Shown here: piece after piece, positions 48,383 through 64,000 of the stretch
Numbering within the stretch: position 1 is the first letter of the stretch
How the letters are laid out: every line of letters starts with the position of its first letter
DNA from: Actinomycetota bacterium
Lineage (GTDB): Bacteria > Actinomycetota > CADDZG01 > JAHWKV01
Direction: 5' to 3'
Length of the DNA: 64,000 nucleotides
Assembly (NCBI GenBank): GCA_051005875.1
Contig: JBPCIX010000022.1
Location: 3,537-67,536, forward strand
The notes under the pieces: generated by a model
Told to the model about the DNA's origin: nothing
The model's database searches: none
The model's input: only the letters and a program-made list of their open reading frames with translations
Position numbers and translations under genes: made by a program

Positions 48383-48616
48383 GTGGTCATGAAGTTCACC
48401 CGCCACGCTAAGAACCGGATCAGACTGATTGCCCGCGCCGACCCGGGGGTCACGCCTGAGGCCGTTTTGTTCGGGGTTGGCAGTGCTTCCGTGCTGAGGT
48501 ACGATGACAAGGGCAATAAAGTAGTTTTGGTCGTTTTGGAGGATCGGACCGTGACCGCAGTTGTGGACGTTAAGACGGAAACGATCATTACCATCTGGGC
48601 AAATGAGTCAAGTTAA
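48383..48616 (+). CDS. DUF4258-like small protein (putative toxin of a two-gene module)
   Basis: 77 aa. The (MV)MKFTRHAKNRIR opening is typical of DUF4258. It overlaps the downstream DUF2283 gene by 14 nt. Confidence 0.6.
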   Translation: MVMKFTRHAKNRIRLIARADPGVTPEAVLFGVGSASVLRYDDKGNKVVLVVLEDRTVTAVVDVKTETIITIWANESS

Positions 48617-48935: not shown

Positions 48936-48955
48936 TTTCGGCCAATTGGCTGAAA
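48936..48955. promoter_or_regulatory. 20-bp near-perfect palindrome upstream of the surface-protein cluster
   Basis: TTTCGGCCAATTGGCTGAAA has one mismatched pair and the core GCCAATTGGC is a perfect palindrome. It is preceded by the direct repeats GGCCTAATTTCGGC and GGCCTGATTTTCGGC, and lies ~150 nt upstream of the ATG at 49104. Confidence 0.4.
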
Positions 48956-49103
48956 TTTATACCCTCAGGCATATTTACTTCCTCTTAATCCGGTGGTCCA
49001 ATGGCATCAGAGACTTTCACCGGCAAATTCGTGCCCCAGCGAGGCAGATTCTCCGGCAAAAGATCGAATAGACCATTTAGCCCACGAGTAAGGAGCGCAG
49101 GAC

Positions 49104-49688
49104 ATGAAAAAAGGCAAGAAAGCGGCGCCGGTAGTTGTTTTTATGATTATTGGAACCATCCTTGGAGCGGCCAGCCTGGCTTGGGCCTGCACTCCGGCCG
49201 CAGGGTTCGTGTCTCTCACTCAAGCCGGGCCGGTCGGCACTAAGTTCACCACCAGCACCACCGGTGTCGGCGTTTCGGAAATCCGCTGGAACAGCCTTGA
49301 CGGTCCGGTCGTAAGCACCCCCGCCGAAAGCTTTGACGGTCCGGTCGTAAGCACCCCCGCCGAAAGCCCGGGCTCGTTTGAAGTAACTGTGCCCCAGGTC
49401 GCTCCGGGTGTTTACTACCTGGTCTTCGCAACCGAAGACGCAGGCGTGGGCCGCATGGCCTTCGAGGTCACTCCCTCGGCCGGTGTTCGCTCGCCCGCTT
49501 CCGTGGTGCCCGCAGATCTTTGGAGCGGTTTCGCCTCGGGCTCACCGTCGGTAGCCCCGCAAGCCCAGGCGCCGGTATCGACCTCCAACGGCGCAGCCGC
49601 CGGCTTCGGCCTGTTGGGCGTAGGCGTGCTGATGATGTCGGGCCTTGCTCTGGTCGCCTTGCGCCGAAGCAAAGGCCGAGCGAGCTAG
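49104..49688 (+). CDS. small signal-peptide protein with AWA|CTP junction, beta-sandwich-like domain, C-terminal TM and basic tail (family copy 1)
   Basis: AAGGAG precedes the ATG. The N-terminus is MKKGKKAAPVVVFMIIGTILGAASLAWACTP and the C-terminus is NGAAAGFGLLGVGVLMMSGLALVALRRSKGRAS. It is a paralog of 62185-62838. Confidence 0.7.
   Translation: MKKGKKAAPVVVFMIIGTILGAASLAWACTPAAGFVSLTQAGPVGTKFTTSTTGVGVSEIRWNSLDGPVVSTPAESFDGPVVSTPAESPGSFEVTVPQVAPGVYYLVFATEDAGVGRMAFEVTPSAGVRSPASVVPADLWSGFASGSPSVAPQAQAPVSTSNGAAAGFGLLGVGVLMMSGLALVALRRSKGRAS
49296..49367 (+). repeat. 36-bp in-frame perfect tandem duplication inside the small surface protein gene
   Basis: [C/T]TTGACGGTCCGGTCGTAAGCACCCCCGCCGAAAGC occurs twice back to back. 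This encodes LDGPVVSTPAES then FDGPVVSTPAES. Confidence 0.9.
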
Positions 49689-49828
49689 ACGGCACTAGAG
49701 GGCTTGGGCCAAATCGGGCAACCAAGACTCGAAGAATCTCACAGGTTGGGCAAAAGGGCCCCCGTCCTGGCTCGACCCTTACCACCAACGCAAATCCACT
49801 AGTGAAGCGCGAGGGAGAACATAGGGCT

Positions 49829-52800: not shown

Positions 52801-53536
52801 GCCCACTTTGGGCGCGACCAAAGTAAGGATTGCCGGCAAAGGGTTCTTAAGGGCTACCAAGGCTGTGGCGTTCGGTGGACTGCCGGCGCCTTTCACCGTG
52901 GCGTCGGACACCGAGATCGAAGCCACCAGCCCTGCTCACCCGGCGGGCGATGTATCGGTGGCGGTCAGTACCACCGAGAATTTGCAGGCAGTCCCCAAAG
53001 TGGCCGGGGCAAACTTGTTCACTTACCTGCTTCCGAAGGTCGCAGTCCCCCTCGATGAGGACCCGGGCAAGGGAGGGACCGATGGCGGCAAGGCCATTGT
53101 TCAGCCGGTCATTCCCGGCGGTGGGACTACGTCAGCGGCGCCGGTCACCCAACCCGCCCAGGCGCCTAATCCCCAGCCTCTTGGCAATGCCCAGCCGGGC
53201 TCAATTGCTCAGCAAAATCCCTCGGCCGTCTTGAGCCCAGGCGCGGCGCCGAATCCCGGCTTTGCCTTAGCGCCGGGCGGCGCAGGCTCTCCGCTTGCTA
53301 ATCCACGAACTGCGTCCGCGGGGGTTGCGGTTGGCGGCTATCAAGACGAACCCAGTGCCGCTCCGCGCCTCGCCATGGTTGCTCTGAATGACCGGGAAGT
53401 GACGCGGGCATGCTTCATGGGCGGATCGACCCTGCTGCTCCTGCTGTTCGGGTTCTCTTTGTCATTTGCCAGACGACGACCTCTGGCGGGACATGCAGAC
53501 GCAACCGAAGCCTGCCCTGCGCCCCAGATCGCATAG
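49829..53536 (+). CDS. giant surface protein: SBBP-type beta-propeller repeats + 3-4 IPT/TIG domains + C-terminal TM anchor
   Basis: The N-terminal PLRFELNRGQAPKEVKFLVRTPKQTLFLTSTE box is typical of SBBP-repeat proteins. Repeats such as DASGNAYLAGWT, DSVGNAYIGGTTSWYDFPTTANAF and DGLGNFFVVGITVSYNFPVTANAFQ follow. IPT/TIG-like units start at ITGIAPEQG, VQSVSPVSGSPLGG and ITAVDPPTGPTLG. The tail is GGSTLLLLLFGFSLSFARRRP. The start is set to TTG 49829 (GAGGGAG 10 nt upstream). The track ORF from 49520 overlaps the previous gene. Confidence 0.75.
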   Translation: MKTQNALQRAKGPGQSGFSKRARRVVALGAAFALVVLPSAGPALEGGQAPTPRAAKPAAQASQPSLARLKDGPKAQAKALKSFGNQPLRFELNRGQAPKEVKFLVRTPKQTLFLTSTEMILMSTGGADETAALGKGPAPVRISLAKRGAKPKISGVSRLPGVSNYFQGRDSKAWVTGAPSFAKVLYKGVYPGIDLLFYENRKGGGLEYDFLVSPGANPASITQSISGATRLGLDKGELVITAPGNEIRQSAPVIYQKIDGRRRLIKGAYMLGDRNSLGFRVGRYDESRTLIIDPVLAWSTLMGDNGSSGDTGSASDGSGTGSNHGPQVATDASGNAYLAGWTAKSFPTQAAFQPVPAGGFVAKFAPNGSLIYSTYLGESSTFPHDIAVDSVGNAYIGGTTSWYDFPTTANAFRPASPSTMQLSKKDGGEHGPVLGSGSPTSFLSKLDIVGRLAYSTYLWPTQGDRGGGSVDNLSAVSVAVSDEKNVFVTGLDFTGTRSGETWAFPYRACPGADNENGGRAVPFVAKFDTGVVAGVPAAAQGSVEGPPPLFLKCGYGGRDLALHGGSLYALDDGFGSRITTSGPPYEPKGVWRLGTADGSPGAHSDLTGLAIATSPTGSPDTSVYVSNKTSITKLDENLAAVEPALSPGSGVILNISVDSKGKLYAVGQGRLGDISTTPDAYQKELRGGVRDAFVMVFDAAGSRVYSTWLGGSPSKPPALTDAEVPCEPLLTSGDDHGTGVGVDGLGNFFVVGITVSYNFPVTANAFQKERKTRCVDGSPGADSFMSDVFAAKFTDALPSLTGIAPEQGFVCERTKVTIKGTGFPDTPAVTFGGRAAEVIGVTHDPDPAKGDTITVMSPTMDAPGPAEVKVTSAGGNSSSTALLGSFRYLPATPPTVQSVSPVSGSPLGGEPVTIAGSFACVTKIAFGDVPPKDFVLSDDRTKITATSPEHDPGPVHVTVATAAGVPGIPQSLNADLFTFAPLITAVDPPTGPTLGATKVRIAGKGFLRATKAVAFGGLPAPFTVASDTEIEATSPAHPAGDVSVAVSTTENLQAVPKVAGANLFTYLLPKVAVPLDEDPGKGGTDGGKAIVQPVIPGGGTTSAAPVTQPAQAPNPQPLGNAQPGSIAQQNPSAVLSPGAAPNPGFALAPGGAGSPLANPRTASAGVAVGGYQDEPSAAPRLAMVALNDREVTRACFMGGSTLLLLLFGFSLSFARRRPLAGHADATEACPAPQIA

Positions 53537-53542
53537 GCGCCC

Positions 53543-56332
53543 TTGAGGAACAAACTTCGCTCTGGTCGGCGAGGCTGGGCCAAAAAGCTTCTAGCAACGT
53601 CGGCCCTCGGCGCCTTTGCCCTGACGAGTCTTGCGCCGCAGGCAAACGGCGCGCTGGGTAACCGCTCTCCGGAACCCGGCACGGTGGACACCGTTGCCGG
53701 TCCGGGCTACTGCTTGGGCCGCTCTGTCCTGGACCCTAAATCGCTAGGCATCAGGTCTCTCGCCGTGAGCCCCGAGGGGCAGCTTGTCGTCGACGCCGGC
53801 CCCCCGAACTCAGGTCTTTTCGGCGTGGTACCTGCTGAGGGCTACGGCGTTTATCGTGCCAGGCCCAAAACCGTGTATTCCCAGGCTCAGTTGCTCCAGA
53901 AAAATCGAGACAACCTGTATAAGCCCTGGGCTCTTCGAGGCGGAAGCGCGCCGGGCCTCGGCCTCATGCGCTTGCCGAGAATGGACGCCAAGCAGGTTGC
54001 AACTGCCGATGAACGTGCCATCCTGATGCCGCATATTTACGATTCAGGCCTCCGCCGAGATTACTCTCCAGACGCAAATTTCACCCCTTTTCTTGGAAAC
54101 ACCGATGGCGCGCCACGTTCGCTCGGAGACGGCGCCCTTGCGGCCAAGGCCGGCTTCACGGCGATTCAGGCTCTTGCGATGGACGAACAACTCAACATTT
54201 ATGTGGCCGACCAGGCCGGAACTAAAGCCAAGAATGCCCAAATACGGTTTGTTAATAACAACTTCATACCCAAAGCGGTCCCGTCGGCCATCATCCTATA
54301 TGCGGGCACTTCTCAAGAGCGAGCCGTTAAACCAGGCGCTATCGACACCGTCGCCGGTAAAGGGCGCAAGCCAAATGCCGGAGATGACGGCCCCGCCCTT
54401 CAAGCAGGCATTGGAACCACCTCATCTATGGTGGTCGCCGGGAAACGGCTCTACATCGCCTCATACATAAAAGGGGGTGCCGGACGTCGGGGGGACGCCC
54501 GTGTGAGGATGGTGAACCTGGGGTCCGAGCAGCTCGAGGCTCACGGCCTTGTCATCAAGCCGGGGACCATAGCCACCGTTGCCGGCGGGCATGGCACCGG
54601 TTTCGCCGGTGACGGGGGCCCGGCCCGGAGAGGCTCCTTCTCACAAATAACGGGAATGGCGGCCGACGCCGATGGGAACCTTTACCTGGCCGACCGCGAC
54701 CACCACCGGATCCGCAGGGTCGACTCGAAGGGCAGGATCACGACCGTTGCCGGTACCGGCGGCGCCGGTCCGCGCGACGGAGGATTCAACGGCAACAATT
54801 TGCCGGCTGTAAAGGCCAAGCTCAACCGGCCGTTTGACGTGAAAACCGGGCCGCAAGGACGCCTGTACATCACCGATGACATGAACGGTCAGATCCGATA
54901 CATCGACTCGGGAGGAATAATTCACGCCGCCTTTGGCAGCGGAATTGGCCTGACGTGGACCTGTCGGCCTCAAAAATCGTTGCCCGCCTCTGGGCCGGAA
55001 CGAGGCGCAGAGGCAAAGCGGGACCAAGTAAGGCAGGGACCACTCGGGAGCGTGGACCTTCCAACCCGGTCTGAACTGCCGACTAACTTCGGGGGCCCCT
55101 CAAGCCTGGCTACTGGAGGTCCGAGGGGCGTTTACGTCGCCACGCCGGAGTTGGGCCAGGTGAAGCTCATCGAGCCATCGGGCGTTGTCAGCACCGTGGC
55201 TGGGGACGGCCGGGATGTGTGCCCGCCCGCCAAAACGTGCCCGCCTTCGGGCGGCGACGGAGGCCCTGCTCTGTCGGCCCGCCTAGACGCACCGGCCCTG
55301 GTGGCGGCGAGCCCCCGCAAGGGTTTCTACGTATTCGACAGGAAAGAGAACCGGATTCGCTTCGTGAACACTAGCTTGAAGCCCCTGCGGATCAACGGCG
55401 TCAAAGTCGCTCCCGGCGCAATTGCGGGCATCGCCGGGGCCCAGGGGGACGCGCCCGGTGCCACCACTGCGCCCGGTGCGCCCGGTGCGCCCGGTGCGCC
55501 TGATCCCAAGAAGGCCGTCTCCGCGGCCGTGCCGGCCGTCAGTTCGCTTGCTGCTGATCGCGCAGGCAACCTCTTCATAGCCGAGCCGGACAGCAAACGA
55601 ATTAGGCGAATTGATAGCGCCGGCGCCATCAGCACATTTATCGGCGAAGGTGGTGACTTCAACGTGGGATCGTCTGGCTGCTGCACGTCTCCTTCGGTGG
55701 TCGCCCCTGGCCCAAGAGGGAGCCTCTACATTTACGACAAAGTCGCCCTGAAGGTCTTTCTCGCCAACAGGGGGACTTCTCAAGTGACGGTGCACGGCCA
55801 GAAGGTTGCCGCAGGCGCCATTGCCCCGGTCGCCGGCAACGGTAAGACGGGATTTGGCGGCGATAACGGACCGGCCCTGACAGGCTCCTTCACGGGGCCT
55901 GAAGCTATGACTACCGATGGGAAGGGCAATCTTTATATCGTCGATCGGCCGGAGGCAACTGTTCGTAAGGTCGACTCTAAGGGTGTCATCACTACCGTCG
56001 CGGGGGCCGGCGGCACCCTAAGCATCTCCGCCGCTTTGGGCGCCGGCGGGTTCAACGGCGACGGGTTAAAGGGCCAGCTGACCGCCTTCAGCAATCCCTC
56101 GGGGATCGCCCTCGACTCCTGCGGCAATCTGCTGATAGCCGACTCCAACAACGACCGTGTCCGGCGGCTTAACTTGAGGCTACCGTGCGGGGTCTCGGCC
56201 GGCCAGACTTCCGGCGCCACTTCGTCCTCGGGGTTGCCGCCTGCACTGCTCATCGGCGGCCCAGCCGTCCTCGTGCTTGCTGGAGTGATCTATCTGCTCG
56301 TTAGGCGGACCCGCTCTTCAGACTCTGAGTAA
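53543..56332 (+). CDS. NHL-repeat beta-propeller surface protein with C-terminal TM anchor
   Basis: The signal is KKLLATSALGAFALTSLAPQANG. There are many NHL-like units (LYLADRDHHRIRRVDSKGRITTVAGTG, LNRPFDVKTGPQGRLYITDDMNGQIRYID, LLIADSNNDRVRRLNL). The tail is LLIGGPAVLVLAGVIYLLVRRTRSSDSE. It starts 7 nt after the SBBP gene stop. Confidence 0.8.
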   Translation: MRNKLRSGRRGWAKKLLATSALGAFALTSLAPQANGALGNRSPEPGTVDTVAGPGYCLGRSVLDPKSLGIRSLAVSPEGQLVVDAGPPNSGLFGVVPAEGYGVYRARPKTVYSQAQLLQKNRDNLYKPWALRGGSAPGLGLMRLPRMDAKQVATADERAILMPHIYDSGLRRDYSPDANFTPFLGNTDGAPRSLGDGALAAKAGFTAIQALAMDEQLNIYVADQAGTKAKNAQIRFVNNNFIPKAVPSAIILYAGTSQERAVKPGAIDTVAGKGRKPNAGDDGPALQAGIGTTSSMVVAGKRLYIASYIKGGAGRRGDARVRMVNLGSEQLEAHGLVIKPGTIATVAGGHGTGFAGDGGPARRGSFSQITGMAADADGNLYLADRDHHRIRRVDSKGRITTVAGTGGAGPRDGGFNGNNLPAVKAKLNRPFDVKTGPQGRLYITDDMNGQIRYIDSGGIIHAAFGSGIGLTWTCRPQKSLPASGPERGAEAKRDQVRQGPLGSVDLPTRSELPTNFGGPSSLATGGPRGVYVATPELGQVKLIEPSGVVSTVAGDGRDVCPPAKTCPPSGGDGGPALSARLDAPALVAASPRKGFYVFDRKENRIRFVNTSLKPLRINGVKVAPGAIAGIAGAQGDAPGATTAPGAPGAPGAPDPKKAVSAAVPAVSSLAADRAGNLFIAEPDSKRIRRIDSAGAISTFIGEGGDFNVGSSGCCTSPSVVAPGPRGSLYIYDKVALKVFLANRGTSQVTVHGQKVAAGAIAPVAGNGKTGFGGDNGPALTGSFTGPEAMTTDGKGNLYIVDRPEATVRKVDSKGVITTVAGAGGTLSISAALGAGGFNGDGLKGQLTAFSNPSGIALDSCGNLLIADSNNDRVRRLNLRLPCGVSAGQTSGATSSSGLPPALLIGGPAVLVLAGVIYLLVRRTRSSDSE

Positions 56333-56361
56333 GGGCCCTCAACGTCCAGGGGCCGCAATGA
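56332..56361 (+). pseudogene. orphan 3' tail of a vapC gene fused to the NHL stop codon
   Basis: AGGGCCCTCAACGTCCAGGGGCCGCAATGA matches AGGGCCCTCAACGTCCAGGGCCCGCAATAG at 57979-58008 at 27 of 30 positions. Both encode RALNVQGPQ*. The copy here begins at the last base of the NHL TAA stop. Confidence 0.75.
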
Positions 56362-56547
56362 CCCCTCTCGCCTATTGCGCCAAAGGGCGGAAGCGATCGA
56401 AATAACCTTTCCCTCGTCCTCCGAGCCGCAGAACTGGAAGCCGTACTCCCGGCACATCTGGCCGAATTCCTGTGGCTTGCCGGTCACTCTGCATCATCAC
56501 CTTTTAGTGGGCAGGAATCAGGGGGGCTGCAGGCGTAGTATTGGGGT

Positions 56548-56760
56548 ATGCGAACTGACTTCAAGGCAGTAGTCAAAAGGGACGACAAGTGGTGGATCGG
56601 ATGGGTCGAGGAAATTTCGGGAGTGAATTCGCAAGGTGAAACTCGCGACGAGCTCATGGAGAATCTGAAATCTGCTTTGTTCGAAGCCCTTGAAATGAAT
56701 AGGGAGTCAGCCCGCAGCGCCGCGGGCGAGGAGTTTGAAGAAGTAACAATCTCGACTTGA
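56548..56760 (+). CDS. HicB-like (UPF0150) antitoxin, no recognisable HicA partner
   Basis: 70 aa. FKAVVKRDDKWWIGWVEEISGVNSQGETRDELMENLKSALFEALE fits the small HicB fold pattern. Confidence 0.65.
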   Translation: MRTDFKAVVKRDDKWWIGWVEEISGVNSQGETRDELMENLKSALFEALEMNRESARSAAGEEFEEVTIST

Positions 56761-56787
56761 AACGCCGGTCGTCCCAGGAGGTTAACA

Positions 56788-57222
56788 ATGACAAAGCTTC
56801 GGCCTTATCTGAATTTTGAAGGAGACGCTGAGGAAGCATTCAACTTCTACAGGTCCGTGTTCGGCGGCGAGTTCGTGTCGTTTTTCCGGTTCAAGGATTT
56901 TCCGATGGAAGGCGTGACCGTACCCGTCGAGGATGAAGGCAAGATGGTGCACATCAGCTTGGAAATCGCCGACGACCAAATCTTGATGGCCAGCGACGCA
57001 CTTCCGGCTCTCGGACAAAAGCTGGTTCAAGGCAACAACGCCCACATCTCGGTTCACCCAGAAAGCCGGGAAGAGGCCGACAGAATCTTCAGCGGTCTCT
57101 CAGACGGCGGCACCGTCGAGATGCCGATCGGCGACCAGCCGTGGGGCGATTATTACGGAAGCTTCAAGGACAGGTTCGGCGTCCAGTGGATGGTTAATTA
57201 CAGCCCGCCGCGGGAACCTTAG
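56788..57222 (+). CDS. VOC/glyoxalase-superfamily protein, PhnB-like
   Basis: AGGAGG RBS. LRPYLNFEGDAEEAFNFYRSVFGGEF...MVHISLEI.DQILMASD...MPIGDQPWGDYYGSFKDRFGVQWMVNY is the classic PhnB-like pattern. Confidence 0.8.
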   Translation: MTKLRPYLNFEGDAEEAFNFYRSVFGGEFVSFFRFKDFPMEGVTVPVEDEGKMVHISLEIADDQILMASDALPALGQKLVQGNNAHISVHPESREEADRIFSGLSDGGTVEMPIGDQPWGDYYGSFKDRFGVQWMVNYSPPREP

Positions 57223-57311
57223 TAGGAGTCTTAAGGCCCCGAGGCCGACGTCGCGGGCGCGGAGGAACGCCTGGGTGGCAGCCGCCCGGCTATGTGCTAC
57301 CATTGTGCGTC

Positions 57312-57602
57312 ATGGGCCAAACTAAGTCCGTCGGAATCAGGCAGCTCAGACAGAACCTCAGCGTCTACATCAGCAGGGTGCGTAAGGGAGAGCGGTATCA
57401 GGTCACCGAAAGAGGAGTTCCGGTAGCCGTTCTGGGCCCCATCTCTGGATCCCACGGCACCCTGGACCGCCTGGCGGCACAGGGCCTCGTTCAGCGGGCA
57501 TCCAGGGATCCTGCCTCTTTAGGCCCCCCGCCTTCTCCTCACAAGAAGCCTAAGATGTCGGCCAGCAAGGCCCTGGCCCAGCTTCGCGCTGATGACCGAT
57601 GA
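57312..57602 (+). CDS. Phd/YefM family antitoxin
   Basis: MGQTKSVGIRQLRQNLSVYISRVRKGERYQVTERGVPVAVLGP. It overlaps the vapC start by 11 nt. Confidence 0.8.
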   Translation: MGQTKSVGIRQLRQNLSVYISRVRKGERYQVTERGVPVAVLGPISGSHGTLDRLAAQGLVQRASRDPASLGPPPSPHKKPKMSASKALAQLRADDR

Positions 57603-58008
57603 AGATGGGGCCCAGGCTCTCACGTACCTGGATTCGTCTGCGATCGTCAAGCTCATTCTTCCGGAACCCGAAAGCGGGGCTCTGTCGGAGTTTCTAGCGG
57701 GCAGAAACCTGGTAAGCAGCCGGCTGGGTGAAATTGAAAGCCGCAGAGCCATAATGCTGACGGGGAGCGACGAGGAAGTGACGGCACGCGAGCAAGAGGT
57801 GCTCGACAGCATTGACCTTATCGAGATATCCCCCACGATTGCGAGTGATGCGGCTGGACTTGAGCCGCCCGCACTGCGAACTCTCGACGCCATCCATCTG
57901 GCAACGGCTCTGGCGCTCGGAGAGGACCTCGACTGTGTGGTTGTTTACGATCACCGGCTTGCTGCCGCTACGCGGGAAAGGGCCCTCAACGTCCAGGGCC
58001 CGCAATAG
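57592..58008 (+). CDS. vapC: VapC PIN-domain toxin
   Basis: It has YLDSSAIVKL (first acidic residue), a central E, and LRTLDAIHLATAL. It ends in RALNVQGPQ. Confidence 0.8.
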   Translation: MTDEDGAQALTYLDSSAIVKLILPEPESGALSEFLAGRNLVSSRLGEIESRRAIMLTGSDEEVTAREQEVLDSIDLIEISPTIASDAAGLEPPALRTLDAIHLATALALGEDLDCVVVYDHRLAAATRERALNVQGPQ

Positions 58009-58023
58009 AAGAATGAAACTTTG

Positions 58024-58446
58024 TCAGCTCGTATCTTCTAGTTCGCGCAGCAGTCGCAGGAAACCGGCGGGGTAGATAACCTCGACATCCTCATTCTCGA
58101 GACCCGCGGCATGAAAGTGGCGGTCCCGGCTGACAAGGTACATCGCTTCAGCCCTGACCGCCAGGTCAGCAAGATAGTCGTCATCCAGATCGCCGGGGAC
58201 CCGCCGCGGCGGGTCGGCGTTGTCCGGATAACCCAATCCTTCCGTTTCAAGCTCTTCGGCGGCCTGATTTATCTCCTCATGGGTAATTCCATATCGCCCA
58301 GCAATTCGGGGCCGCCCCATCACCTCGATGAACTCCCTGATCAGCTCCGGGCAGGTCGCGAGCTCAAAGACTCCTTCCCGCCATAGATTGAGAAGCTCAT
58401 GGGCGGCACCGGAGTGCGCGAGGGTTCCGGCGACCAACGCATCCAC
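58024..58446 (-). CDS. PIN-family toxin (TIGR00305-like), N-terminus compromised
   Basis: The track start is GTG 58446 (MDALVAGTLAHSGAAHELLNLWREGVFELATCPELIREF). The expected N-terminal strand IKVAID lies upstream, between the RHH stop (58468-58470, same reading frame) and the GTG. Only an ATA codon (58464) is available there. Confidence 0.6.
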   Translation of the reverse strand: MDALVAGTLAHSGAAHELLNLWREGVFELATCPELIREFIEVMGRPRIAGRYGITHEEINQAAEELETEGLGYPDNADPPRRVPGDLDDDYLADLAVRAEAMYLVSRDRHFHAAGLENEDVEVIYPAGFLRLLRELEDTS

Positions 58447-58467
58447 GTCGATTGCAACTTTTATCGG

Positions 58468-58707
58468 TCATTTCCGGCGAGGGGTGCGCCGGGCCTTTCG
58501 TACCTCTTCCAGTGCCTCTCCGGCAGCCTGAGCGGCAGGCTTTTCTTCGAGCGACGCCTTTGCTCTGATTCGCTCGAGAGGATCCAGGCCTTGCCGTAGA
58601 GCTTCTTCAAGTACGTCCGACTGAGAGCGGCCCATTCTTGCCGCCTTCACCCGAACTCGCCGGAGCAAATCCTCCTCCACGAGAAGAGTCGTCTTGAATC
58701 TTGCCAT
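58468..58707 (-). CDS. ribbon-helix-helix (CopG/VapB-like) antitoxin
   Basis: Trimmed to MARFKTTLLVEEDLLRRVRVKAARMGRSQSDVLEEALRQGL, the RHH pattern. The upstream part of the 164-aa track ORF looks non-coding. Confidence 0.7.
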   Translation of the reverse strand: MARFKTTLLVEEDLLRRVRVKAARMGRSQSDVLEEALRQGLDPLERIRAKASLEEKPAAQAAGEALEEVRKARRTPRRK

Positions 58708-58822
58708 AAAACCATAATACCGTAAAGACATACGACAGGCGAAGATACGGCGCACGAACCTAGCCGCAGTTAGAGCCGTGATGATTGGGGAAGGAGGGAT
58801 GATGACGGAAGTTGAATGGACC

Positions 58823-59233
58823 TTACGCCTTGGTTCCCCAAACGGTCCAACCCAGAAAGTTTGCAGCTTTTGATTGTCTGACGTCGTAGGTGATAAATGG
58901 CAAGAGTCCACCGCCGGCTTGATCGGCAGCCCCGAGGTGAAGAGCGTCGAGGGTACGCACACCGGTTCTTTCGGCTATTTCCGCCGCGCTTTCGCATACG
59001 GCCTTTGTGAGTGTGACTTTCTTAACTGCTGCCCAATCCCGGGAGAATTGATCTCGCGCTTTGGCGTAGTCCTTTCCTTTTAACCCTAGAGCCAGGTTGC
59101 GTCTAACTTCGACTTCGGTGTGTCGCCCGGAAATCCAATCGGTGTCCTTTTTCAGGAGCTTAAGGCAAGCTGTAAAGTCCGCCTCCCGGAAATAGATCTT
59201 GAGGAGCGCGCTGGAATCTACATAAACGCTCAC
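58823..59233 (-). CDS. vapC: VapC PIN-domain toxin
   Basis: It has MSVYVDSSALLKIY and RTLDALHLGAA. The GTGA start-stop overlap with the upstream antitoxin is intact. Confidence 0.8.
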   Translation of the reverse strand: MSVYVDSSALLKIYFREADFTACLKLLKKDTDWISGRHTEVEVRRNLALGLKGKDYAKARDQFSRDWAAVKKVTLTKAVCESAAEIAERTGVRTLDALHLGAADQAGGGLLPFITYDVRQSKAANFLGWTVWGTKA

Positions 59234-59511
59234 TCTGCCCGGTCTTCTCGCAGGAGGTCTTCCACTGTTATCGATGCCCGGAAGCCTTTGTGGTCGGAAA
59301 GGTCAAGTTTCCCGGCGCCCGGGGAAATCCACCCTTGACGAATGCCTCGCCGGACAAGGTCGTCGGCAGTTTCGGGCGGCACGGAAGGGTCGGCCGGACC
59401 GATTAAGGCCTTTGGCCGTCCCCGGCTCGTTACGGTAATGACTTCGCCATCCTCAGCTCGATCCAGATACTCGGAAAGCCGGGCCTTTAAGGTTCTGACG
59501 GGCACCTCCAT
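59230..59511 (-). CDS. Phd/YefM-type antitoxin
   Basis: MEVPVRTLKARLSEYLDRAEDGEVITVTSRGRPKALIGP. Confidence 0.75.
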   Translation of the reverse strand: MEVPVRTLKARLSEYLDRAEDGEVITVTSRGRPKALIGPADPSVPPETADDLVRRGIRQGWISPGAGKLDLSDHKGFRASITVEDLLREDRAE

Positions 59512-59623
59512 GTAGTCACACTAACACAATAGATGACCACATTGGGGAACAGGCAATTTGCTGAGGGGCGAAGACGGCGTCGAAGGCTGCTTTGGGTTAG
59601 TCAGACTCTGGTAGGGTTTCGGT

Positions 59624-59848
59624 ATGACCAGCAAACGTAAAATCTCCATTTCGCTCGACCCCGAATTGGTGGACGAACTCGAGGCCCAGGGTGTTCCTCT
59701 GTCCAGTCAGATCAACCGTGTCCTGAGCGACGAACTGGCGCGGCGCCGTCGAAGCAGGCTACTTAAGGACCTCCTCGGGGAGATGGATCACAGGGTTGGG
59801 AAGGTCGACGAAGCCCTGATCGAAAAGTACGAGGAGTTGCTCAGGTGA
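59624..59848 (+). CDS. RHH-type antitoxin
   Basis: MTSKRKISISLDPELVDELEAQGVPLSSQINRVLSDEL. It has a GTGA overlap with the downstream PIN gene. Confidence 0.7.
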   Translation: MTSKRKISISLDPELVDELEAQGVPLSSQINRVLSDELARRRRSRLLKDLLGEMDHRVGKVDEALIEKYEELLR

Positions 59849-60264
59849 CCGGTGGCCTGGTGCTCGATGCGGAGGCGATTTCCGCGCTGGCGCGGGAGAA
59901 CTCCCCCGGCAACCAGGAGGTCCGGGCGGCGATGACCGCTGCTGCGCGGCTGGGGAAGGACGTGATAGTTGCGACCGTCACACTGGCGGAACTTTACCGG
60001 GGCCACGGCCACAATCAGATCGTCGACTCGTGCCTGTCCCGGGAGACTGGAATTGCTACCCGTGACACGGACAAAGAGTTTGCACGCCTGGTCGGCGGAC
60101 TGCTCGCCGGGGCCGGCATGGAATCGGACAACCTTGCCGACGCTCATGTTGTAGCTGCTGCCCTGGAGGCCGGACGGTGTGTCGTACTGACCGGCGACCG
60201 GGACGACATCCAGGCTCTTGCAGCGCCGTACCCGAACATCATCATCCGGGCGCTTCCAACCTGA
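59845..60264 (+). CDS. PIN-domain toxin
   Basis: It has LVLDAEAISALA, TVTLAELYRG and a DAHVVAAALEAG..VLTGDRDD pattern. Confidence 0.75.
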   Translation: MTGGLVLDAEAISALARENSPGNQEVRAAMTAAARLGKDVIVATVTLAELYRGHGHNQIVDSCLSRETGIATRDTDKEFARLVGGLLAGAGMESDNLADAHVVAAALEAGRCVVLTGDRDDIQALAAPYPNIIIRALPT

Positions 60265-60310: not shown

Positions 60311-60447
60311 CCGCTCCTCAACGACTCGATCGCCGATACCGGTAACGACCGTGTTCGCCGCCTTAACCTGGCCCCGCCATGCGGCGGTTCATCGGCAGCG
60401 GCGGCGTCGGCCGGTCCCAAGTCGTCGGGCCGGCTCGTCCCTCTAAA
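60311..60447 (+). pseudogene. C-terminal fragment of an NHL-repeat protein (truncated paralog of 53543-56332)
   Basis: PLLNDSIADTGNDRVRRLNLAPPCGGSSAAAASAGPKSSG aligns with LLIADSNNDRVRRLNLRLPCGVSAGQTSGATSSSG of the intact gene. I estimate nucleotide identity at roughly three quarters over the core by eye. The TM anchor is missing, and similarity stops a few nt before the 26-bp repeat. Confidence 0.7.
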
Positions 60448-60450
60448 TAA

Positions 60451-60476
60451 GGAATATCTGAAGTTATATTTCGCTC
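60451..60476. repeat. 26-bp AT-rich element, copy 2 (see 48289-48316)
   Basis: GGAATATCTGAAGTTATATTTCGCTC lies directly after the truncated NHL fragment. The hairpin ACCGGCC-ccc-GGCCGGT follows at about 60505-60521. Confidence 0.85.
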
Positions 60477-60673
60477 AGATTTGTGATGCATTAGTCTTGT
60501 TTTACCGGCCCCCGGCCGGTTTCAAGTCTTCGCACCTCCAAGCGTTTGAACGACATGGAACGCCCAATCGGCACATATCTGTACGGCCGAAACATAATGA
60601 CCCCGCAAGAATTCCTCACGGCCCCGAACTCGCTAGATCACAATCAGGTCAAGATTCCCTAAATAATTAGCGA

Positions 60674-60679
60674 TATAAT
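60674..60679 (+). promoter_or_regulatory. perfect TATAAT box 7 nt upstream of the Fic ATG (possible leaderless transcript)
   Basis: GCGATATAATCTACTAATG. There is no Shine-Dalgarno sequence between the box and the ATG at 60686. Confidence 0.35.
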
Positions 60680-60685
60680 CTACTA

Positions 60686-61840
60686 ATGCTTCTTCCCTTC
60701 AAGGTAACGTCCGTCACCACGGCGGGGCTGGGCGAATTGGACGAATGGCGTTCCAGGCTGGACTATAAGGAGCCGGTTCCCAGGTCTTGGGCCGGGCGAC
60801 TGAGGCGGGACCTGGAGGCGGAGGCTGTGGCCGCGTCCACGATTATGGAGGGTGTCCCGGTTACCTTGGAGGATGTTCGGCGCATTCTTGCCGGTGACCA
60901 AGCCGTACCGGTAGGAAATGATGAAAGGCAGTTGGTCCTGGGGTACGAGCAGGCCATGAACTTCGTTCTGAGAAGAGCCGACGACGCCACCTTCCAGTGG
61001 AACCGGGAGCTAGTAATTGGCCTGCACGACCGCGTTCTGGCGGGCCGGTTCGACTTGGGGGCCGGCGGATTTCGCTCTGGCCAAACAAGGGTCGTCGATG
61101 TTTCGTCGCAAAGGACCCTGTTTCTTCCTCCCGCCTCTGGAAGCCTTCCCGGCCTGGCAGATGAGATTTGCGAGAGGGTAAGCCGGCCTGAACTCCACCC
61201 TGCACTTGCTTCGGCGTGGGTTCACATCGCGCTGGCGGCTATCCATCCTTTCAAAGATGGAAACGGCAGGACTTGTCGAGTGCTGGCCTCATTGGCCATG
61301 TATAGGGGTGGATTTAGGCGCAAGGAGTTCACTTCGCTCGAGGAGTGGTGGGGTAGTCACAAAGCCGACTACTATACGGCGTTCAAGTGTCTGGGCGATC
61401 AATTCACCCGTGGAGCCGACGTCACGCCGTTCGTAGAGACCCATGTTCAAGCTCAACTAAGCCAGGTGAGAGGACTCGACCTCAGGGAGCGAGTCGAGCG
61501 CAAGATTTGGACTGTTCTTGAGGATCTGGCCGAGCAATCGGGCCTGGCCCGCCGCGCGGCAAATGCTTTGTGGGACTCCTTCTTTGGAAGGGACGTTTCC
61601 GCCGGCTACTATCGGGCGCTGGCTGATGTCAGCCCCGCAACCGCAACCAACGATCTTGCCTTGGCCTCGGCGGTTGGGTTTTTAAGAGCTAAGGGTCGGG
61701 CCCGGGCAAGAGTCTATTTGGCCGGAGACAAACTCTACGAAAGCGTTGCCGCTGCATTGGGCCTTAATACAGGTTTGGATGCCCAGGCCCTGAAGGCGTC
61801 CATAATCGAATCCCTGACTTCCCGGGAAATAGAGCGGTAA
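60686..61840 (+). CDS. Fic family protein with intramolecular inhibitory motif
   Basis: The canonical Fic motif is HPFKDGNGRTCR (HxFx[DE]GNGRxxR). The N-terminal segment STIMEG matches the [ST]xxxE[GN] inhibitory-helix motif. Confidence 0.85.
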   Translation: MLLPFKVTSVTTAGLGELDEWRSRLDYKEPVPRSWAGRLRRDLEAEAVAASTIMEGVPVTLEDVRRILAGDQAVPVGNDERQLVLGYEQAMNFVLRRADDATFQWNRELVIGLHDRVLAGRFDLGAGGFRSGQTRVVDVSSQRTLFLPPASGSLPGLADEICERVSRPELHPALASAWVHIALAAIHPFKDGNGRTCRVLASLAMYRGGFRRKEFTSLEEWWGSHKADYYTAFKCLGDQFTRGADVTPFVETHVQAQLSQVRGLDLRERVERKIWTVLEDLAEQSGLARRAANALWDSFFGRDVSAGYYRALADVSPATATNDLALASAVGFLRAKGRARARVYLAGDKLYESVAAALGLNTGLDAQALKASIIESLTSREIER

Positions 61841-62184
61841 ATGCTTGAGGAAACGCCTTCGTTTGGTTGCCAACAGACGTTCCCCCTTTCGCCATGAAGA
61901 CCCATGTTACCGACGCGCGCCGACAGCCTTACGAGTACCGCTTCATGCTGTTCGTTCGCTGGTTGTAGTACACCAGGCAGACGTGTCCGCAAGGACCAAG
62001 TCGGAAATGGGAGACCATGACGACCACCGACGCGCTCATAATTTCATCGATGTAAGGCGTGATTTGTGACATTTTGCACTATTGCGTTGGCGGAAAATGC
62101 CCTCAATAATGATTGCGAAGGTAATTTGTCGGGTCGGGGCTCAGGAATTCGGCGCCGAGAAATATATTAGGAAGAAGGTAACCA

Positions 62185-62838
62185 ATGAACAAAAGGTCGA
62201 AGGCAGTTGTAGCCACTTTGGCGCTAGCGATCCTTGCAGGATCGGCCGCAGCGTGGGCATGCACCCCCCAGTACACGATTTTTCCTCTTTCCCTACAGGC
62301 GGGCGCGCCCGGCAGTCAGGTCGTAGTCACCGGCCAAGCCGATGCAAAACGGGCTGTGGAGGTACGCTGGGACAGTGCTGAGGGCCCTGTTTTGGGCTCG
62401 GCAAGCGCAGCGGGAGAGGACCAGGAATTCCGGTACTCGGTTCCGGTGACCATTCCCGAGGCTTCACCAGGCGTCCATTACTTGATGGTCCTGGCAAAAA
62501 GAGATCCCGGTGTTCACCCCTGGGAAGTCGACGCCCAAGGCCGGTGGGTCGCACGGGCAGCTTTCAATGTTTTGACGTCAGCCCCCTCCGGCCAATCCAC
62601 CGCGGGCAGTCAGGGGCCCATAACGGCAGACTATCCTGATCTGTGGAGAGGCTTTCAAGGCGGCGCCCAACTTGGCAATTCAGGGATCACCGACGCCGGG
62701 CGAAGCGCTGGGGGCAACGGACAAGCAGCTCTGGGGATGGCCTTTCTCGTGCTCGGATTCGTTGGAGTCTCGTCGGTAGCCGGCTTGGGATTAGCGGGCC
62801 GGTCACGCAGACGCCGAGCCTCAAACGCAGGCGAATAG
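62185..62838 (+). CDS. small signal-peptide protein with AWA|CTP junction, C-terminal TM and Arg-rich tail (family copy 2)
   Basis: The N-terminus is MNKRSKAVVATLALAILAGSAAAWACTP. It has VEVRWDS.EGPVLG and PGVHYLMVLA (compare EIRWNSLDGPVV and PGVYYLVFAT in copy 1). The tail is NGQAALGMAFLVLGFVGVSSVAGLGLAGRSRRRRASNAGE. Confidence 0.7.
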   Translation: MNKRSKAVVATLALAILAGSAAAWACTPQYTIFPLSLQAGAPGSQVVVTGQADAKRAVEVRWDSAEGPVLGSASAAGEDQEFRYSVPVTIPEASPGVHYLMVLAKRDPGVHPWEVDAQGRWVARAAFNVLTSAPSGQSTAGSQGPITADYPDLWRGFQGGAQLGNSGITDAGRSAGGNGQAALGMAFLVLGFVGVSSVAGLGLAGRSRRRRASNAGE

Positions 62839-62854
62839 GCTCGCACGAAAGGTA

Positions 62855-64000
62855 GTGGGACCGCCGCGGGCTGATCACCGTAAAGCGCCAGGGCTTCGAC
62901 TGCTCCTACTTGCGGCCTTGGGGTTGGGGGCGGCATGGGTTCCCACCGCCGGTCAGGCGGCTGCGCCCCCAGCCTGGGAAGAGGTTGGCGACATGCGCCA
63001 GCCTCGCGAGGGACATACCGCCACCCTTCTTTCCGGCCCTGACTGCGGTGGTCAGCACCGGGCCGTCTATTGCGGACAAGTCCTCGTAGCCGGCGGTTTC
63101 CAGTGGGTTGGCTCGGTTCCTATCGATGGTCGGCCCTATGACCCTAGAGACTCGCTAGATAAGCGCGTTTTCCAGACTGCTGAGATCTTTGACCCCAAAT
63201 CTCGGCAGTGGGCGCCTACGGGGTCCCTGGAGAAAGCCCGGTGGGGCCATCAAGCCGTGGGGCTTCCCGACGGGAGAGTGCTCGTCATGGGGGGAGAAGG
63301 AGGTGCAAACGGCCCTACCCTGGCTTCTGCCGAGCTTTACGATCCCCGAAGTAAGAAATGGAAGCTGACAGGCTCCCTTCACGTGCCCAGGTGGCTATTT
63401 ACTGCCACGTTGCTCCAGGGGCAGGGATGTGGTTCCAGTTGTGGCAAGGTCTTGGTGGTCGGCGGCGGATCTTCTGCTCCGGCCTCAACGTCCGCCGAGC
63501 TCTTCGACCCCAAGAGTGAAAGCTGGAGTTCTGCCGGGTCACTTACTGAACCGCGAGCAAGTCACACTGCGACCCTCGTATCTGGGCCGCGCTGCGGCTC
63601 TATCTGCGGACAGGTGCTGGTAGCCGGCCCTTTAAAAACGACTGAGCTGTACGACCCCTCCAAGGGAACGTGGACGCCTGTGGGCGAAATGGTGGTTGCT
63701 TCCAGCCAGGGGTCTGCTGCCCTTCTTTCCTCCGGAGATGTCCTTGTAATTGGATCCGGAGCGGCCCTGAACCCTGGATCGCCGGGGCATACAACCGAAT
63801 TGAATGCTCAGTTGTTCGACCCGATGCTCGGTACCTGGACCTCGACGCGGCCACCGGGAGGTCGCCGCGTGGCCTCGTTTTTGACTAGGTTAGGAGATGG
63901 AGGAGTTCTAGCCGCGGGAGGTGAGAAAAATAACACTGCTGCTGCGATTTACTACCGAGGAGGTGCCAAAGGCGATCCCAACGGCGTGTGGGAACCTGCT
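62855..64000 (+). CDS. secreted Kelch-repeat beta-propeller protein (runs off right edge)
   Basis: Hand translation from GTG 62855 gives MGPPRADHRKAPGLRLLLLAALGLGAAWVPTAGQA as the signal. Repeated Kelch-like units follow (REGHTATLL, AEIFDPKSRQWAPTGSL..ARWGHQAVGLPDGRVLVMGG, AELYDPRSKKWKLTGSL, AELFDPKSESWSSAGSLTEPRASHTATLV, TELYDPSKGTWTPVGEM). The frame is open to position 64000, so it is absent from the ORF track. Confidence 0.75.
   Translation, partial: MGPPRADHRKAPGLRLLLLAALGLGAAWVPTAGQAAAPPAWEEVGDMRQPREGHTATLLSGPDCGGQHRAVYCGQVLVAGGFQWVGSVPIDGRPYDPRDSLDKRVFQTAEIFDPKSRQWAPTGSLEKARWGHQAVGLPDGRVLVMGGEGGANGPTLASAELYDPRSKKWKLTGSLHVPRWLFTATLLQGQGCGSSCGKVLVVGGGSSAPASTSAELFDPKSESWSSAGSLTEPRASHTATLVSGPRCGSICGQVLVAGPLKTTELYDPSKGTWTPVGEMVVASSQGSAALLSSGDVLVIGSGAALNPGSPGHTTELNAQLFDPMLGTWTSTRPPGGRRVASFLTRLGDGGVLAAGGEKNNTAAAIYYRGGAKGDPNGVWEPA

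What the first reader, a model, noticed from the sequence alone, without database searches (positions are those of the whole stretch)
60311..60476. Truncated NHL C-terminal fragment ending at a 26-bp element that also occurs at 48289
Positions 60311-60447 encode ...IADTGNDRVRRLNLAPPCGGSSAAAASAGPKSSG, homologous to the last propeller blade and stalk of the intact NHL protein. The upstream ~880 codons and the TM anchor are missing.

Homology ends a few nt before GGAATATCTGAAGTTATATTTCGCTC (60451-60476). The same element, with a 2-nt AT indel, sits at 48289-48316 between the LuxR regulator and the DUF4258 gene.

The two copies are in direct orientation and bracket ~12.2 kb containing the surface cluster and most TA modules. 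Two readings are possible. They may be boundaries of an inserted or rearranged segment. Alternatively the element may be a shared promoter/operator: it is AT-rich, contains AATAT..ATATT, and copy 1 lies 32-59 nt upstream of the regulator start.
Basis: partly seen in the sequence, partly recalled or inferred. Interest (0 to 1): 0.6.

Follow-up and report, generated by a model that had tools for sequence, protein, structure and literature searches.

The report
Regulator's operator box beside gene remnants
The 26-base element is most likely the conserved binding box in the promoter of a neighbouring LuxR/NarL-type response regulator; its second copy lies alone in a spacer made of dead gene pieces, and the pair does not mark a mobile island.

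Summary
The element GGAATAT(AT)CTGAAGTTATATTTCGCTC occurs at 48289-48316 and 60451-60476 and nowhere else in the 1.8 Mb genome. The stretch 60311-60430 is a true remnant of an NHL-propeller gene tail.

Copy 1 is a 23-bp imperfect palindrome at -55 to -33 from the start codon of the LuxR/NarL-type response regulator gene (47601-48257, minus strand). An 85%-identical orthologue from another metagenome keeps the box 22/23 at the same position, while the DNA around it has diverged. Paralogous regulators carry their own AT-rich dyads at the same place, upstream of a TANNNT hexamer 6-7 nt before the start codon. This suggests a leaderless promoter. I read copy 1 as a promoter operator.

The island-boundary reading is not supported. 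Regulator, box and surface genes are neighbours in the orthologue and in a paralogous module. There is no integrase in the window, and no excision joint appears in the source-run contigs.

Copy 2 is solitary. It has no -10 hexamer and no gene on the regulator side, and it lacks 2 bp. It sits between the NHL remnant, a hairpin, a RibD_C gene remnant and a self-contained Fic cassette. It may be a relic or a weak second operator upstream of the second surface module. This is an ordinary kind of feature, of modest interest.

The parts
47601..48257 (-). NarL/LuxR-type response regulator (receiver + GerE HTH), probably leaderless
   Evidence: Pfam Response_reg 2.6e-14 and GerE 4.6e-13. An 85% orthologue P0004 exists. 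Paralogues lie on C38, C8, C60, C9 and C2, and there are 24 in relative G004.
48264..48269 (-). -10-like hexamer TAGCAT, 6 nt before the regulator ATG
   Evidence: The same TANNNT + 6-7 nt + start arrangement occurs in 8 of 10 orthologues and paralogues. The hexamer is conserved as TACCAT in L048. Its function is inferred.
48289..48316 (-). Copy 1 (S1). The dyad box reads GAAATATAACTTCAGATATATTC (48290-48312) on the minus strand, at -55..-33 from the ATG. Likely operator of the regulator promoter.
   Evidence: 22/23 identical at the same offset in orthologous locus L048:1912-1934, with diverged flanks. blastn homology to L048 starts exactly at 48312. The C38 paralogue has a 23-bp dyad at the same offset.
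48383..48854 (+). Small two-gene insert (unnamed ORF + DUF2283) between box and surface genes
   Evidence: DUF2283 2.3e-9. In L048 the same spacer holds a frameshifted Uma2 pseudogene instead.
48952..49000 (+). S2: conserved site GAAATTTATACCCTCAGGCATATTTAC, about 125 nt upstream of smallIg1. Resembles S1 with small indels.
   Evidence: 26/26 identical to L048:1450-1475 (reverse complement) and 87.5% over 48 nt. Among the roughly twelve best alignments to S1 in the genome.
49104..56332 (+). Surface module 1: small Ig-like protein, SBBP/IPT giant, intact NHL propeller protein
   Evidence: Pfam hits. The same gene order next to a regulator paralogue occurs on C8.
56333..60264 (.). Stretch of toxin-antitoxin and other small genes between NHL1 and the NHL remnant
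   Evidence: Pfam: PhdYeFM, PIN, RHH, CcdA-like, glyoxalase. A vapC tail copy lies at 56331-56359 (D12).
60311..60430 (+). NHL' remnant: last propeller blade plus stalk, with no start, no TM anchor and no stop of its own
60451..60476 (+). Copy 2 (S3): solitary copy of the box, 2 bp shorter in the (AT)n run
   Evidence: There is no flank similarity to copy 1. There is no TANNNT at the matching distance and no regulator-like gene on that side.
60494..60528 (+). GC-rich hairpin (core ACCGGCC-CCC-GGCCGGT), terminator-like
   Evidence: MFE -21.9 kcal/mol, z = -3.4. It does not pass the consensus terminator scan.
60536..60595 (+). Remnant of a RibD_C (dihydrofolate-reductase-like) gene, internal piece only
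   Evidence: 43/46 identical to C2:11187-11232, and 87% over about 60 nt. The C2 gene is RibD_C, 2.4e-16.
60657..61840 (+). Fic cassette with its own promoter (TATAAT 60674-60679, ATG 60686)
   Evidence: Pfam Fic 7.4e-15. The upstream 30 nt is conserved with Fic homologues L052 and L053 in other contexts.
62063..62112 (+). Conserved block upstream of smallIg2 (module 2's own control region)
   Evidence: About 45/50 identical to L051, with unconserved flanks.
62185..64000 (+). Surface module 2: small Ig-like protein 2 and Kelch propeller. An NHL2 gene follows beyond the window.

Best explanation
The 26-bp element is the operator box of the promoter of the adjacent NarL/LuxR-type response regulator gene. 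It is a 23-bp AT-rich imperfect palindrome centred about 44 nt upstream of a start codon. That start codon is probably also the transcription start, because a TANNNT hexamer lies 6 nt before it. A dimer of the regulator most likely binds the box and controls its own gene. Through a related site (48952-48978) it probably also controls the divergent small-Ig/SBBP/NHL surface operon.

The second copy at 60451 is a solitary copy of the same box. It lies in a 390-bp spacer that is a patchwork of leftovers. In order these are the tail of a lost NHL gene, the box, a hairpin, an internal piece of a RibD_C gene, and then an independently mobile Fic cassette.

The two copies are not the ends of a mobile or inserted segment. 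The spacer reflects repeated insertion and deletion of small selfish genes between two old surface-protein modules.

Shown: both copies exist. The NHL and RibD_C pieces are true remnants. Copy 1 is conserved across species at a fixed promoter position. The regulator-box-surface-gene order is ancestral.

Inferred: that the regulator itself binds the box, that its mRNA is leaderless, and whether copy 2 still works. I put copy 2 at about 60% relic and 40% working secondary site.
For: - Copy number: two in the genome, none for the reversed control.
- Dyad symmetry: the dyad is found by a scan (AATATA-N8-TATATT), and by my own count 18 of 24 positions are self-complementary.
- Position: copy 1 lies at -55..-33 from the ATG.
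- Phylogenetic footprint: in L048 (regulator 85% identical) the box is 22/23 identical at -55..-33. The 20 nt to the -10 hexamer and the distal flank are unalignable. blastn homology begins at the box edge.
- Family architecture: TANNNT lies 6-7 nt before the start codon in 8 of 10 paralogues and orthologues. AT-rich dyads occupy the same offset; the C38 dyad GAAATAGCCATTTGGACTATTTC shares 13/23 positions with S1. Paralogue boxes occur in 2-4 near-identical copies only beside their own regulator.
- Synteny: the order <-regulator | boxes | smallIg -> propellers is seen on C8, in L048, and in at least 9 of 20 smallIg loci of G004.
- Patchwork spacer: NHL', RibD_C', and the Fic cassette with its own conserved promoter in other contexts.
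- Against an island: no integrase in the window and no excision joint.
Against: - No binding or transcription data exist, and no RNA runs were found.
- Only one close orthologous contig supports the footprint, and it does not reach the copy 2 region.
- Copy 2 matches copy 1 perfectly over 23 nt, including 4 nt (GCTC) that are not conserved in the orthologue. This points to recent copying rather than long selection.
- The shared stretch coincides almost exactly with the functional box. That is unexpected for a random relic and speaks for selection on copy 2.
- The consensus sigma-70 scan found no promoter at either copy.
- The 12.2 kb segment is compositionally unusual: GC at the 99th percentile, tetranucleotide distance at the 97th.
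Confidence: 0.7

Rival explanations
1. Copy 2 is a working second operator. The same regulator binds at 60451-60476 and thereby couples the downstream genes to module 1. Those genes are the second surface module smallIg2-Kelch-NHL2 and perhaps Fic. The Fic cassette and the RibD_C piece were inserted later between operator and target, as the DUF2283 pair was inserted behind copy 1.
For: - The stretch shared by the two copies coincides within about 4 nt with the box defined by cross-species conservation. That is unlikely for two random deletion endpoints.
- smallIg2 is the only smallIg gene of this genome without a regulator paralogue next to it.
- Near-identical multiple boxes are normal in this regulator family (C38).
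- By my own reading of the sequences, the half-site spacing of copy 2 (7-8-7) lies within the range seen in paralogue boxes.
Against: - Copy 2 lies 210 nt from Fic and 1.7 kb from smallIg2.
- Fic has its own conserved promoter. smallIg2 has its own conserved upstream block.
- A stable hairpin follows copy 2.
- The 2-bp deletion hits a run that is conserved in the orthologue.
- No orthologous sequence covers this site.
Confidence: 0.3
2. The junction NHL'|box is the novel joint of an old tandem duplication. The duplicated unit began at the left edge of the box and ended inside the 3' end of an NHL gene. Later insertions and deletions erased the rest.
For: - It explains in one event why a 3'-truncated NHL tail abuts the left edge of the box in direct orientation.
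- Two surface modules with the same layout lie in tandem.
- The box is under strong constraint and could stay identical.
Against: - smallIg1 and smallIg2 are only 33% identical, and no closer to each other than to the C8 copy. Both modules already exist in the related JGI sample, so the duplication would be very old.
- 20 nt of unrelated sequence separate the NHL homology from the box.
- An intact NHL1 with its anchor lies upstream.
- The C-terminus of NHL2, needed for the test, runs off the contig.
Confidence: 0.15
3. The two copies are att-like direct repeats, or element ends, that bound a 12.2 kb inserted or mobile segment.
For: - The repeats are direct, with sharp edges and unrelated flanks.
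- The segment has unusual GC and tetranucleotide composition.
- The area is rich in toxin-antitoxin genes.
- A minor strain in the source run has a breakpoint 20 nt from copy 1.
Against: - Regulator, box and surface genes are contiguous in the orthologue and in paralogous modules. The left 'boundary' therefore lies inside an ancestral unit.
- No recombinase or transposase lies in or beside the segment.
- No tRNA is at either end.
- No joint links the copies in the source-run contigs.
- The minor-strain breakpoint is at 48268/48269, outside the repeat, and removes the regulator side rather than the 12.2 kb.
- The composition bias sits in the surface-protein genes.
Confidence: 0.04
4. Copy 2, the 29-nt vapC tail at 56331 and the RibD_C piece are short templated patches (filler DNA) copied from elsewhere in the genome during error-prone repair of double-strand breaks at cassette junctions.
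For: Three short (23-60 nt) high-identity (87-100%) copies of sequences from elsewhere lie at junctions in this 15 kb stretch.
Against: - About 60 isolated exact repeats of 21 nt or more exist genome-wide, many explained by tRNAs or dispersed repeats.
- Plain deletion of larger duplicates explains the same pattern.
- From my own knowledge, this repair outcome is poorly documented in bacteria.
Confidence: 0.08

Closest known systems
DevR/DosR (NarL-subfamily response regulator) and its Dev boxes in Mycobacterium tuberculosis
   Same: Both are actinobacterial two-domain NarL-type regulators. DevR binds as a dimer to 18-20 bp palindromic boxes placed a few tens of nt upstream of start codons, usually in two or more copies per promoter (PMC3177182). 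The paralogues here (C38, C8) also show 3-4 boxes per intergenic region.
   Different: The box sequence is unrelated: an AT-rich GAAATA..TATTTC type rather than a GGGACT type. The regulator here has only one box at its own promoter. No adjacent kinase was found. The target genes are surface-protein modules. Binding is not tested.
LuxR-type lux box, class II activation
   Same: Both are dyad sites of about 20 bp bound by a GerE-type HTH dimer and centred near -42, overlapping the -35 region. This rests on my own knowledge of the lux system, not on a test here.
   Different: This regulator has a receiver domain, not an autoinducer-binding domain. The transcription start is only inferred.
Eroded gene remnants in toxin-antitoxin-rich, high-turnover chromosomal stretches
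   Same: The NHL tail, the RibD_C piece and the vapC tail (earlier finding e1-2777283) are short dead fragments between small selfish genes.
   Different: One of the short repeated pieces here coincides with a conserved regulatory box rather than with coding sequence.
attL/attR direct repeats of integrated genomic islands
   Same: Both are short identical direct repeats with unrelated flanks, bracketing accessory-looking genes.
   Different: There is no integrase and no tRNA target. The left repeat lies inside a conserved promoter. The bracketed genes next to it are ancestral neighbours. No excision product was seen.

Membership tests
NarL/FixJ (LuxR-type) response regulator | N-terminal receiver domain plus C-terminal GerE/LuxR helix-turn-helix | tested here: met
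   PF00072 2.6e-14 and PF00196 4.6e-13, both above the curated cut-offs
Operator of a NarL-type regulator | Dyad-symmetric site of about 18-24 bp in a promoter region | tested here: met
   A 23-bp imperfect palindrome at -55..-33 of the regulator gene
Operator of a NarL-type regulator | Conservation of the site in orthologous promoters against diverged flanks | tested here: met
   22/23 identity in L048 at the same offset, with unalignable flanks. Only one orthologue is available.
Operator of a NarL-type regulator | Specific binding by the regulator and an effect on transcription | not testable with these tools
   Needs EMSA or footprinting and reporter assays. No RNA runs were found.
att sites / boundaries of an integrated island | Recombinase gene within or beside the bracketed segment | tested here: not met
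   Pfam scans of all ORFs from 45-64 kb found none. The single PF00589 hit in the genome is on contig C77.
att sites / boundaries of an integrated island | Relatives or subpopulations with an empty site or an excised form | tested here: not met
   The orthologue has regulator-box-smallIg-SBBP contiguous. The source-run contigs show no joint between the copies. Contigs can miss rare forms.
Multi-copy regulatory or repetitive motif (REP/MITE) | Many copies in the genome | tested here: not met
   Two copies in 1.8 Mb at up to 2-5 mismatches. The two metagenome matches were chance hits in unrelated AT-rich DNA.
NHL-repeat beta-propeller gene (pseudogene remnant) | Significant similarity to an NHL blade and tail, without an intact reading frame of its own | tested here: met
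   E = 3e-7 to NHL1 residues 865-897. The next best matches are the tails of NHL paralogues on C9, C38 and C8. Pfam finds nothing in the fragment alone.

The most novel reading that the evidence does not exclude
This lineage keeps a set of paralogous, kinase-less NarL-type regulators. Each has a private AT-rich dyad operator at -44 of a leaderless promoter. Each is wired to its own small-Ig plus beta-propeller surface module, giving an array of separately switchable surface-protein sets. Copy 2 would then record a rewiring event, in which a module that lost its own regulator was captured by the neighbour's regulator through a copied operator.
Probability: 0.2. Interest if true: 0.55.

Novelty: new member of a known kind. 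Interest (0 to 1): 0.3.

Why it matters
The finding itself is ordinary: a pseudogene tail and a transcription-factor box. Its value is for annotation.

- It gives a concrete, testable operator for an uncharacterised regulator of an uncultured actinobacterium.
- It links the regulator family to the small-Ig/propeller surface modules noted by an earlier agent.
- It shows that spacers next to these operators are favoured landing sites for small selfish genes: the DUF2283 pair, Uma2, Fic and VapBC modules.
- If copy 2 is functional, it would be a small natural example of regulon growth by operator copying.

Tried and rejected
- DNA searches of 40 relatives with either spacer found nothing. The genus has no other genome in the set.
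- Exact-protein look-ups for Fic and the regulator returned only the source sample.
- A pattern scan of the metagenome collection gave two chance hits in unrelated AT-rich DNA.
- No RNA runs hold the stretch.
- Rfam found only two distant tRNAs.
- Consensus promoter and terminator scans found nothing at either copy.
- Alignment of the flanks of the two copies gave scores no better than shuffles. The idea of a larger decayed duplication therefore has no direct support.
- Fic as the target of copy 2 is rejected. Fic homologues in other contexts carry the same 30-nt promoter.
- A lost regulator gene left of copy 2 is rejected. The minus-strand ORF 59788-60420 has no Pfam hit, and the region is occupied by the NHL remnant.
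- Comparing NHL' with the C-terminus of NHL2 was not possible, because the gene runs off the contig.

Full report
OBSERVATION

Both parts of the finding are in the sequence.
- GGAATATATCTGAAGTTATATTTCGCTC lies at 48289-48316. GGAATATCTGAAGTTATATTTCGCTC lies at 60451-60476.
- They share an exact 23-mer (family D16). They differ by one AT unit in an (AT)n run.
- No shuffle of the window produced the 19-mer core.
- The whole 1.8 Mb, 78-contig assembly (89% complete) holds only these two copies, even at two mismatches or five.
- About 60 isolated exact repeats of 21 nt or more exist in this genome. Many are tRNA pieces or a dispersed repeat. This one is by far the most AT-rich, at 30% GC.
- The reading frame 60311-60430 gives PLLNDSIADTGNDRVRRLNLAPPCGGSSAAAASAGPKSSG.
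  - It aligns to residues 865-897 of the intact NHL protein at 53543-56332, with 21/34 identity and E = 3e-7.
  - The DNA alignment scores 38, against a maximum of 30 in 500 shuffles.
  - The next best matches in the genome are the tails of NHL paralogues on C9, C38 and C8.
- The remnant lacks the transmembrane anchor and everything upstream.
- Recognisable homology stops at 60430, which is 20 nt before the element.

WHAT THE SPACER AT COPY 2 IS MADE OF

The 421 bases between the PIN-like toxin gene (59845-60264) and the Fic gene (60686-61840) form a patchwork.
- After the NHL remnant and the box comes a stable GC-rich hairpin at 60494-60528 (-21.9 kcal/mol, z = -3.4).
- Next, 60536-60595 is 87-93% identical to an internal piece of a gene on contig C2. 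That gene is a RibD_C family protein (Pfam 2.4e-16). Only about 20 codons survive.
- From about 60657 the sequence belongs to the Fic gene.
  - Fic homologues in two unrelated contexts (L052, L053) carry the same roughly 30 nt upstream (CCCTAAAT..TTAGYGATAnnATCTnCTAATG). These hold a TATAAT-like hexamer 6 nt before the ATG.
  - Fic has 60-70% identical relatives in several phyla and no close orthologue. It is a self-contained, mobile gene, and the box is not its promoter.
- An earlier agent had already described a 29-nt vapC tail behind the NHL1 stop codon as a scar (seen here as D12).
- This stretch therefore accumulates short dead fragments.

WHAT COPY 1 IS

Position and symmetry:
- Read on the minus strand, copy 1 is GAAATATAACTTCAGATATATTC. 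By my own count 18 of 24 positions are self-complementary, and a dyad scan picks it up as AATATA-N8-TATATT.
- It lies at -55 to -33 from the ATG (48257) of a response regulator with a receiver domain and a GerE/LuxR helix-turn-helix.

The family of paralogues:
- The regulator has five paralogues in this genome and 24 in the closest available relative, G004.
- Their upstream regions carry their own AT-rich dyads of 19-23 bp, in two to four copies.
  - TAGTCCAAATGGCTATTT occurs three to four times at C38:16104-16303.
  - ATAGACCTTTAGGCTATTT occurs three times at C8:1097-1332.
  - Similar pairs occur in G004 loci L019 and L047.
  - Each box type occurs nowhere else in the genome.
- The proximal C38 box, GAAATAGCCATTTGGACTATTTC, has the same length and the same offset (-55..-33) as copy 1. 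It shares 13 of 23 bases with it, including the outer GAAATA...TTC.
- In eight of ten orthologues and paralogues a TANNNT hexamer lies 6-7 nt before the start codon, for example TAGCAT-CAGGCG-ATG here.
  - From general knowledge of actinobacterial promoters, this is the arrangement of a leaderless transcript.
  - The box would then be centred near -44, over the -35 region, as for class II activators.

The cross-species comparison is the strongest single result.
- A protein 85% identical to the regulator exists in a JGI metagenome (P0004). Its contig (L048) carries GAAATATAACTTTAGATATATTC at L048:1912-1934.
- That is again -55..-33, and 22/23 identical.
- The 20 nt between box and -10 hexamer, and the distal flank, cannot be aligned. 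The -10 reads TACCAT.
- blastn homology between the two loci begins exactly at the box edge and runs through the regulator gene at 75% identity.
- This is a phylogenetic footprint, so the box is under selection.
- The most economical reading is autoregulation by the adjacent regulator. The closest experimentally known analogue is DevR/DosR of M. tuberculosis with its palindromic Dev boxes (PMC3177182).
- Binding itself is inferred, not shown.

A RELATED SECOND SITE
- GAAATTTATACCCTCAGGCATATTTAC (48952-48978) lies about 125 nt upstream of the small Ig-like gene at 49104.
- It is 26/26 identical in L048, where it also lies upstream of the orthologous small Ig gene.
- It resembles copy 1 with 2-3 nt of extra spacing.
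- It ranks about twelfth genome-wide in alignment score to the box. My rough estimate is p of about 0.002 for such a score in that 250-nt region, judged after the fact.
- It may be the site through which the same regulator controls surface module 1.

WHY THE PAIR IS NOT AN ISLAND BOUNDARY
- The order <-regulator | box | small Ig -> propeller genes recurs in several places.
  - It is found on C8 (regulator, boxes, small Ig, Kelch, NHL).
  - It is found in L048.
  - It is found at nine or more of the 20 small-Ig loci in G004.
- Copy 1 therefore lies inside an ancestral unit, not at an insertion joint.
- What does vary is the filling of the spacer. Here it is an unnamed ORF plus DUF2283. In L048 it is a 5'-truncated, frameshifted Uma2 pseudogene.
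- No recombinase or transposase lies between 45 and 64 kb. The only PF00589 match in the genome is on C77.
- The contigs of the source run cross copy 2 without a break and show no joint between the copies.
- The 12.2 kb segment is compositionally unusual: GC 0.603 (99th percentile) and tetranucleotide distance at the 97th percentile.
  - The bias sits in the Gly/Ala/Pro-rich surface-protein genes (GC 0.612).
  - The toxin-antitoxin part is typical, at 0.587.

A STRUCTURAL VARIANT NEAR COPY 1
- In the source run a 51-nt contig (depth 16, against about 30 for the genome) joins the end of a repeat to window position 48269. The repeat runs at about four times genome depth and matches C59:73-93.
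- A 58-nt contig (depth 8.5) leaves the window at 46638 into DNA that is absent from the assembly.
- A minor strain thus appears to lack 46639-48268, which holds a Phd-VapC pair and the regulator. It keeps the box and everything to its right.
- The breakpoint is 20 nt outside the element, at the edge of the -10 hexamer. It does not involve copy 2.

WHAT COPY 2 IS

This remains open.

Against function:
- On the side where the regulator gene would lie there is no TANNNT at the matching distance and no regulator-like gene.
- Two bases are missing from a run that the orthologue conserves.
- Fic and smallIg2 each have their own conserved control regions.
- A hairpin follows the box.

For function:
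- The stretch shared by the two copies coincides within about 4 nt with the conserved box. Two random deletion endpoints would rarely produce this.
- smallIg2 is the one small-Ig gene of this genome with no regulator paralogue beside it.
- Near-identical multiple boxes are normal in this family.
- The two copies also share GCTC beyond the conserved core. The orthologue does not share it, which suggests copying rather than convergence.

I rate relic at about 0.6 and working secondary site at about 0.4.

An old tandem duplication could explain the NHL'|box joint in one step, if the unit ran from the box to the inside of an NHL gene. Three points count against it.
- The two modules are only 33% identical at the small-Ig protein.
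- They are no closer to each other than to the C8 copy.
- Both already exist in the related sample.

VERDICT

The operator reading is supported for copy 1. The island-boundary reading is not supported. The feature is a new example of known kinds of things: a NarL-type regulator's operator, plus gene remnants in a high-turnover stretch. The link between a regulator family with private operators and the surface-protein modules is the most useful by-product.

Noticed in passing
window 60536-60595; G000 C2:11184-11245: An internal piece of a RibD_C (dihydrofolate-reductase-like) gene sits in the spacer before Fic. It is 43/46 identical to the intact gene on contig C2.
   Followed up: yes
window 60657-60688; L052:185-222; L053:930-976: Fic genes in three unrelated contexts share a roughly 30-nt upstream block. 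It holds an ATTAG..CTAAT inverted repeat and a TATAAT-like hexamer 6 nt before the ATG. This suggests that Fic moves with its own leaderless, possibly self-regulated promoter.
   Followed up: partly
window 48952-49000; L048:1428-1475: A 26-nt site upstream of smallIg1 is perfectly conserved in the orthologue. It resembles the regulator's box with extra spacing and is a candidate second operator.
   Followed up: partly
window 62063-62112; L051:about 80-130: A roughly 50-nt block upstream of smallIg2 (TTTGTGACATTTTGCACTATTGC...CCTCAATAATGA) is conserved against diverged flanks in the 72% orthologue.
   Followed up: partly
window 46638 and 48268/48269; G000 C59:1-98: Source-run contigs show a minor strain in which 46639-48268 (Phd-VapC plus the regulator) is replaced. 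On the right side the window is joined to the end of a repeat that runs at about four times genome depth in two samples. Only 98 nt of that repeat are in the assembly. It may be an insertion sequence.
   Followed up: partly
window 48861-48954: A low-depth contig of a second, unrelated sample (X2) skips these 94 nt. The deletion ends at the edge of the conserved site upstream of smallIg1.
   Followed up: no
L048:1500-1879: The orthologous regulator-smallIg spacer holds a 5'-truncated, frameshifted Uma2 endonuclease pseudogene where this window has the DUF2283 pair.
   Followed up: yes
G000 C38:16104-16303, C8:1097-1332; G004 loci L019, L033, L047: Each paralogous LuxR-type regulator has its own AT-rich dyad box in 2-4 copies, plus a TANNNT hexamer 6-7 nt before its start codon. 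Small-Ig genes lie within 2 kb of such a regulator in at least 9 of 20 cases in G004.
   Followed up: partly
G000 C16:87, C52:196, C68:8215 and 17288, C3:16137, C8:9775, C41:7141: A dispersed repeat of about 30 nt (GCCCTGACCACTAACGTTTGCGTGGTTTGGG) occurs on at least six contigs, often near contig ends.
   Followed up: no
window 49238-49364: The smallIg1 gene holds a 36-nt tandem repeat (49293-49364). The source-run contigs break there and show single-base indel variants at 49238 and 49243.
   Followed up: no
L048:2630-12623 versus G000 C77:2660-8876: Beyond the regulator, the orthologous contig is syntenic with contig C77 of this genome, not with the window. The regulator/surface module therefore sits in a different chromosomal neighbourhood in the two organisms.
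   Followed up: no
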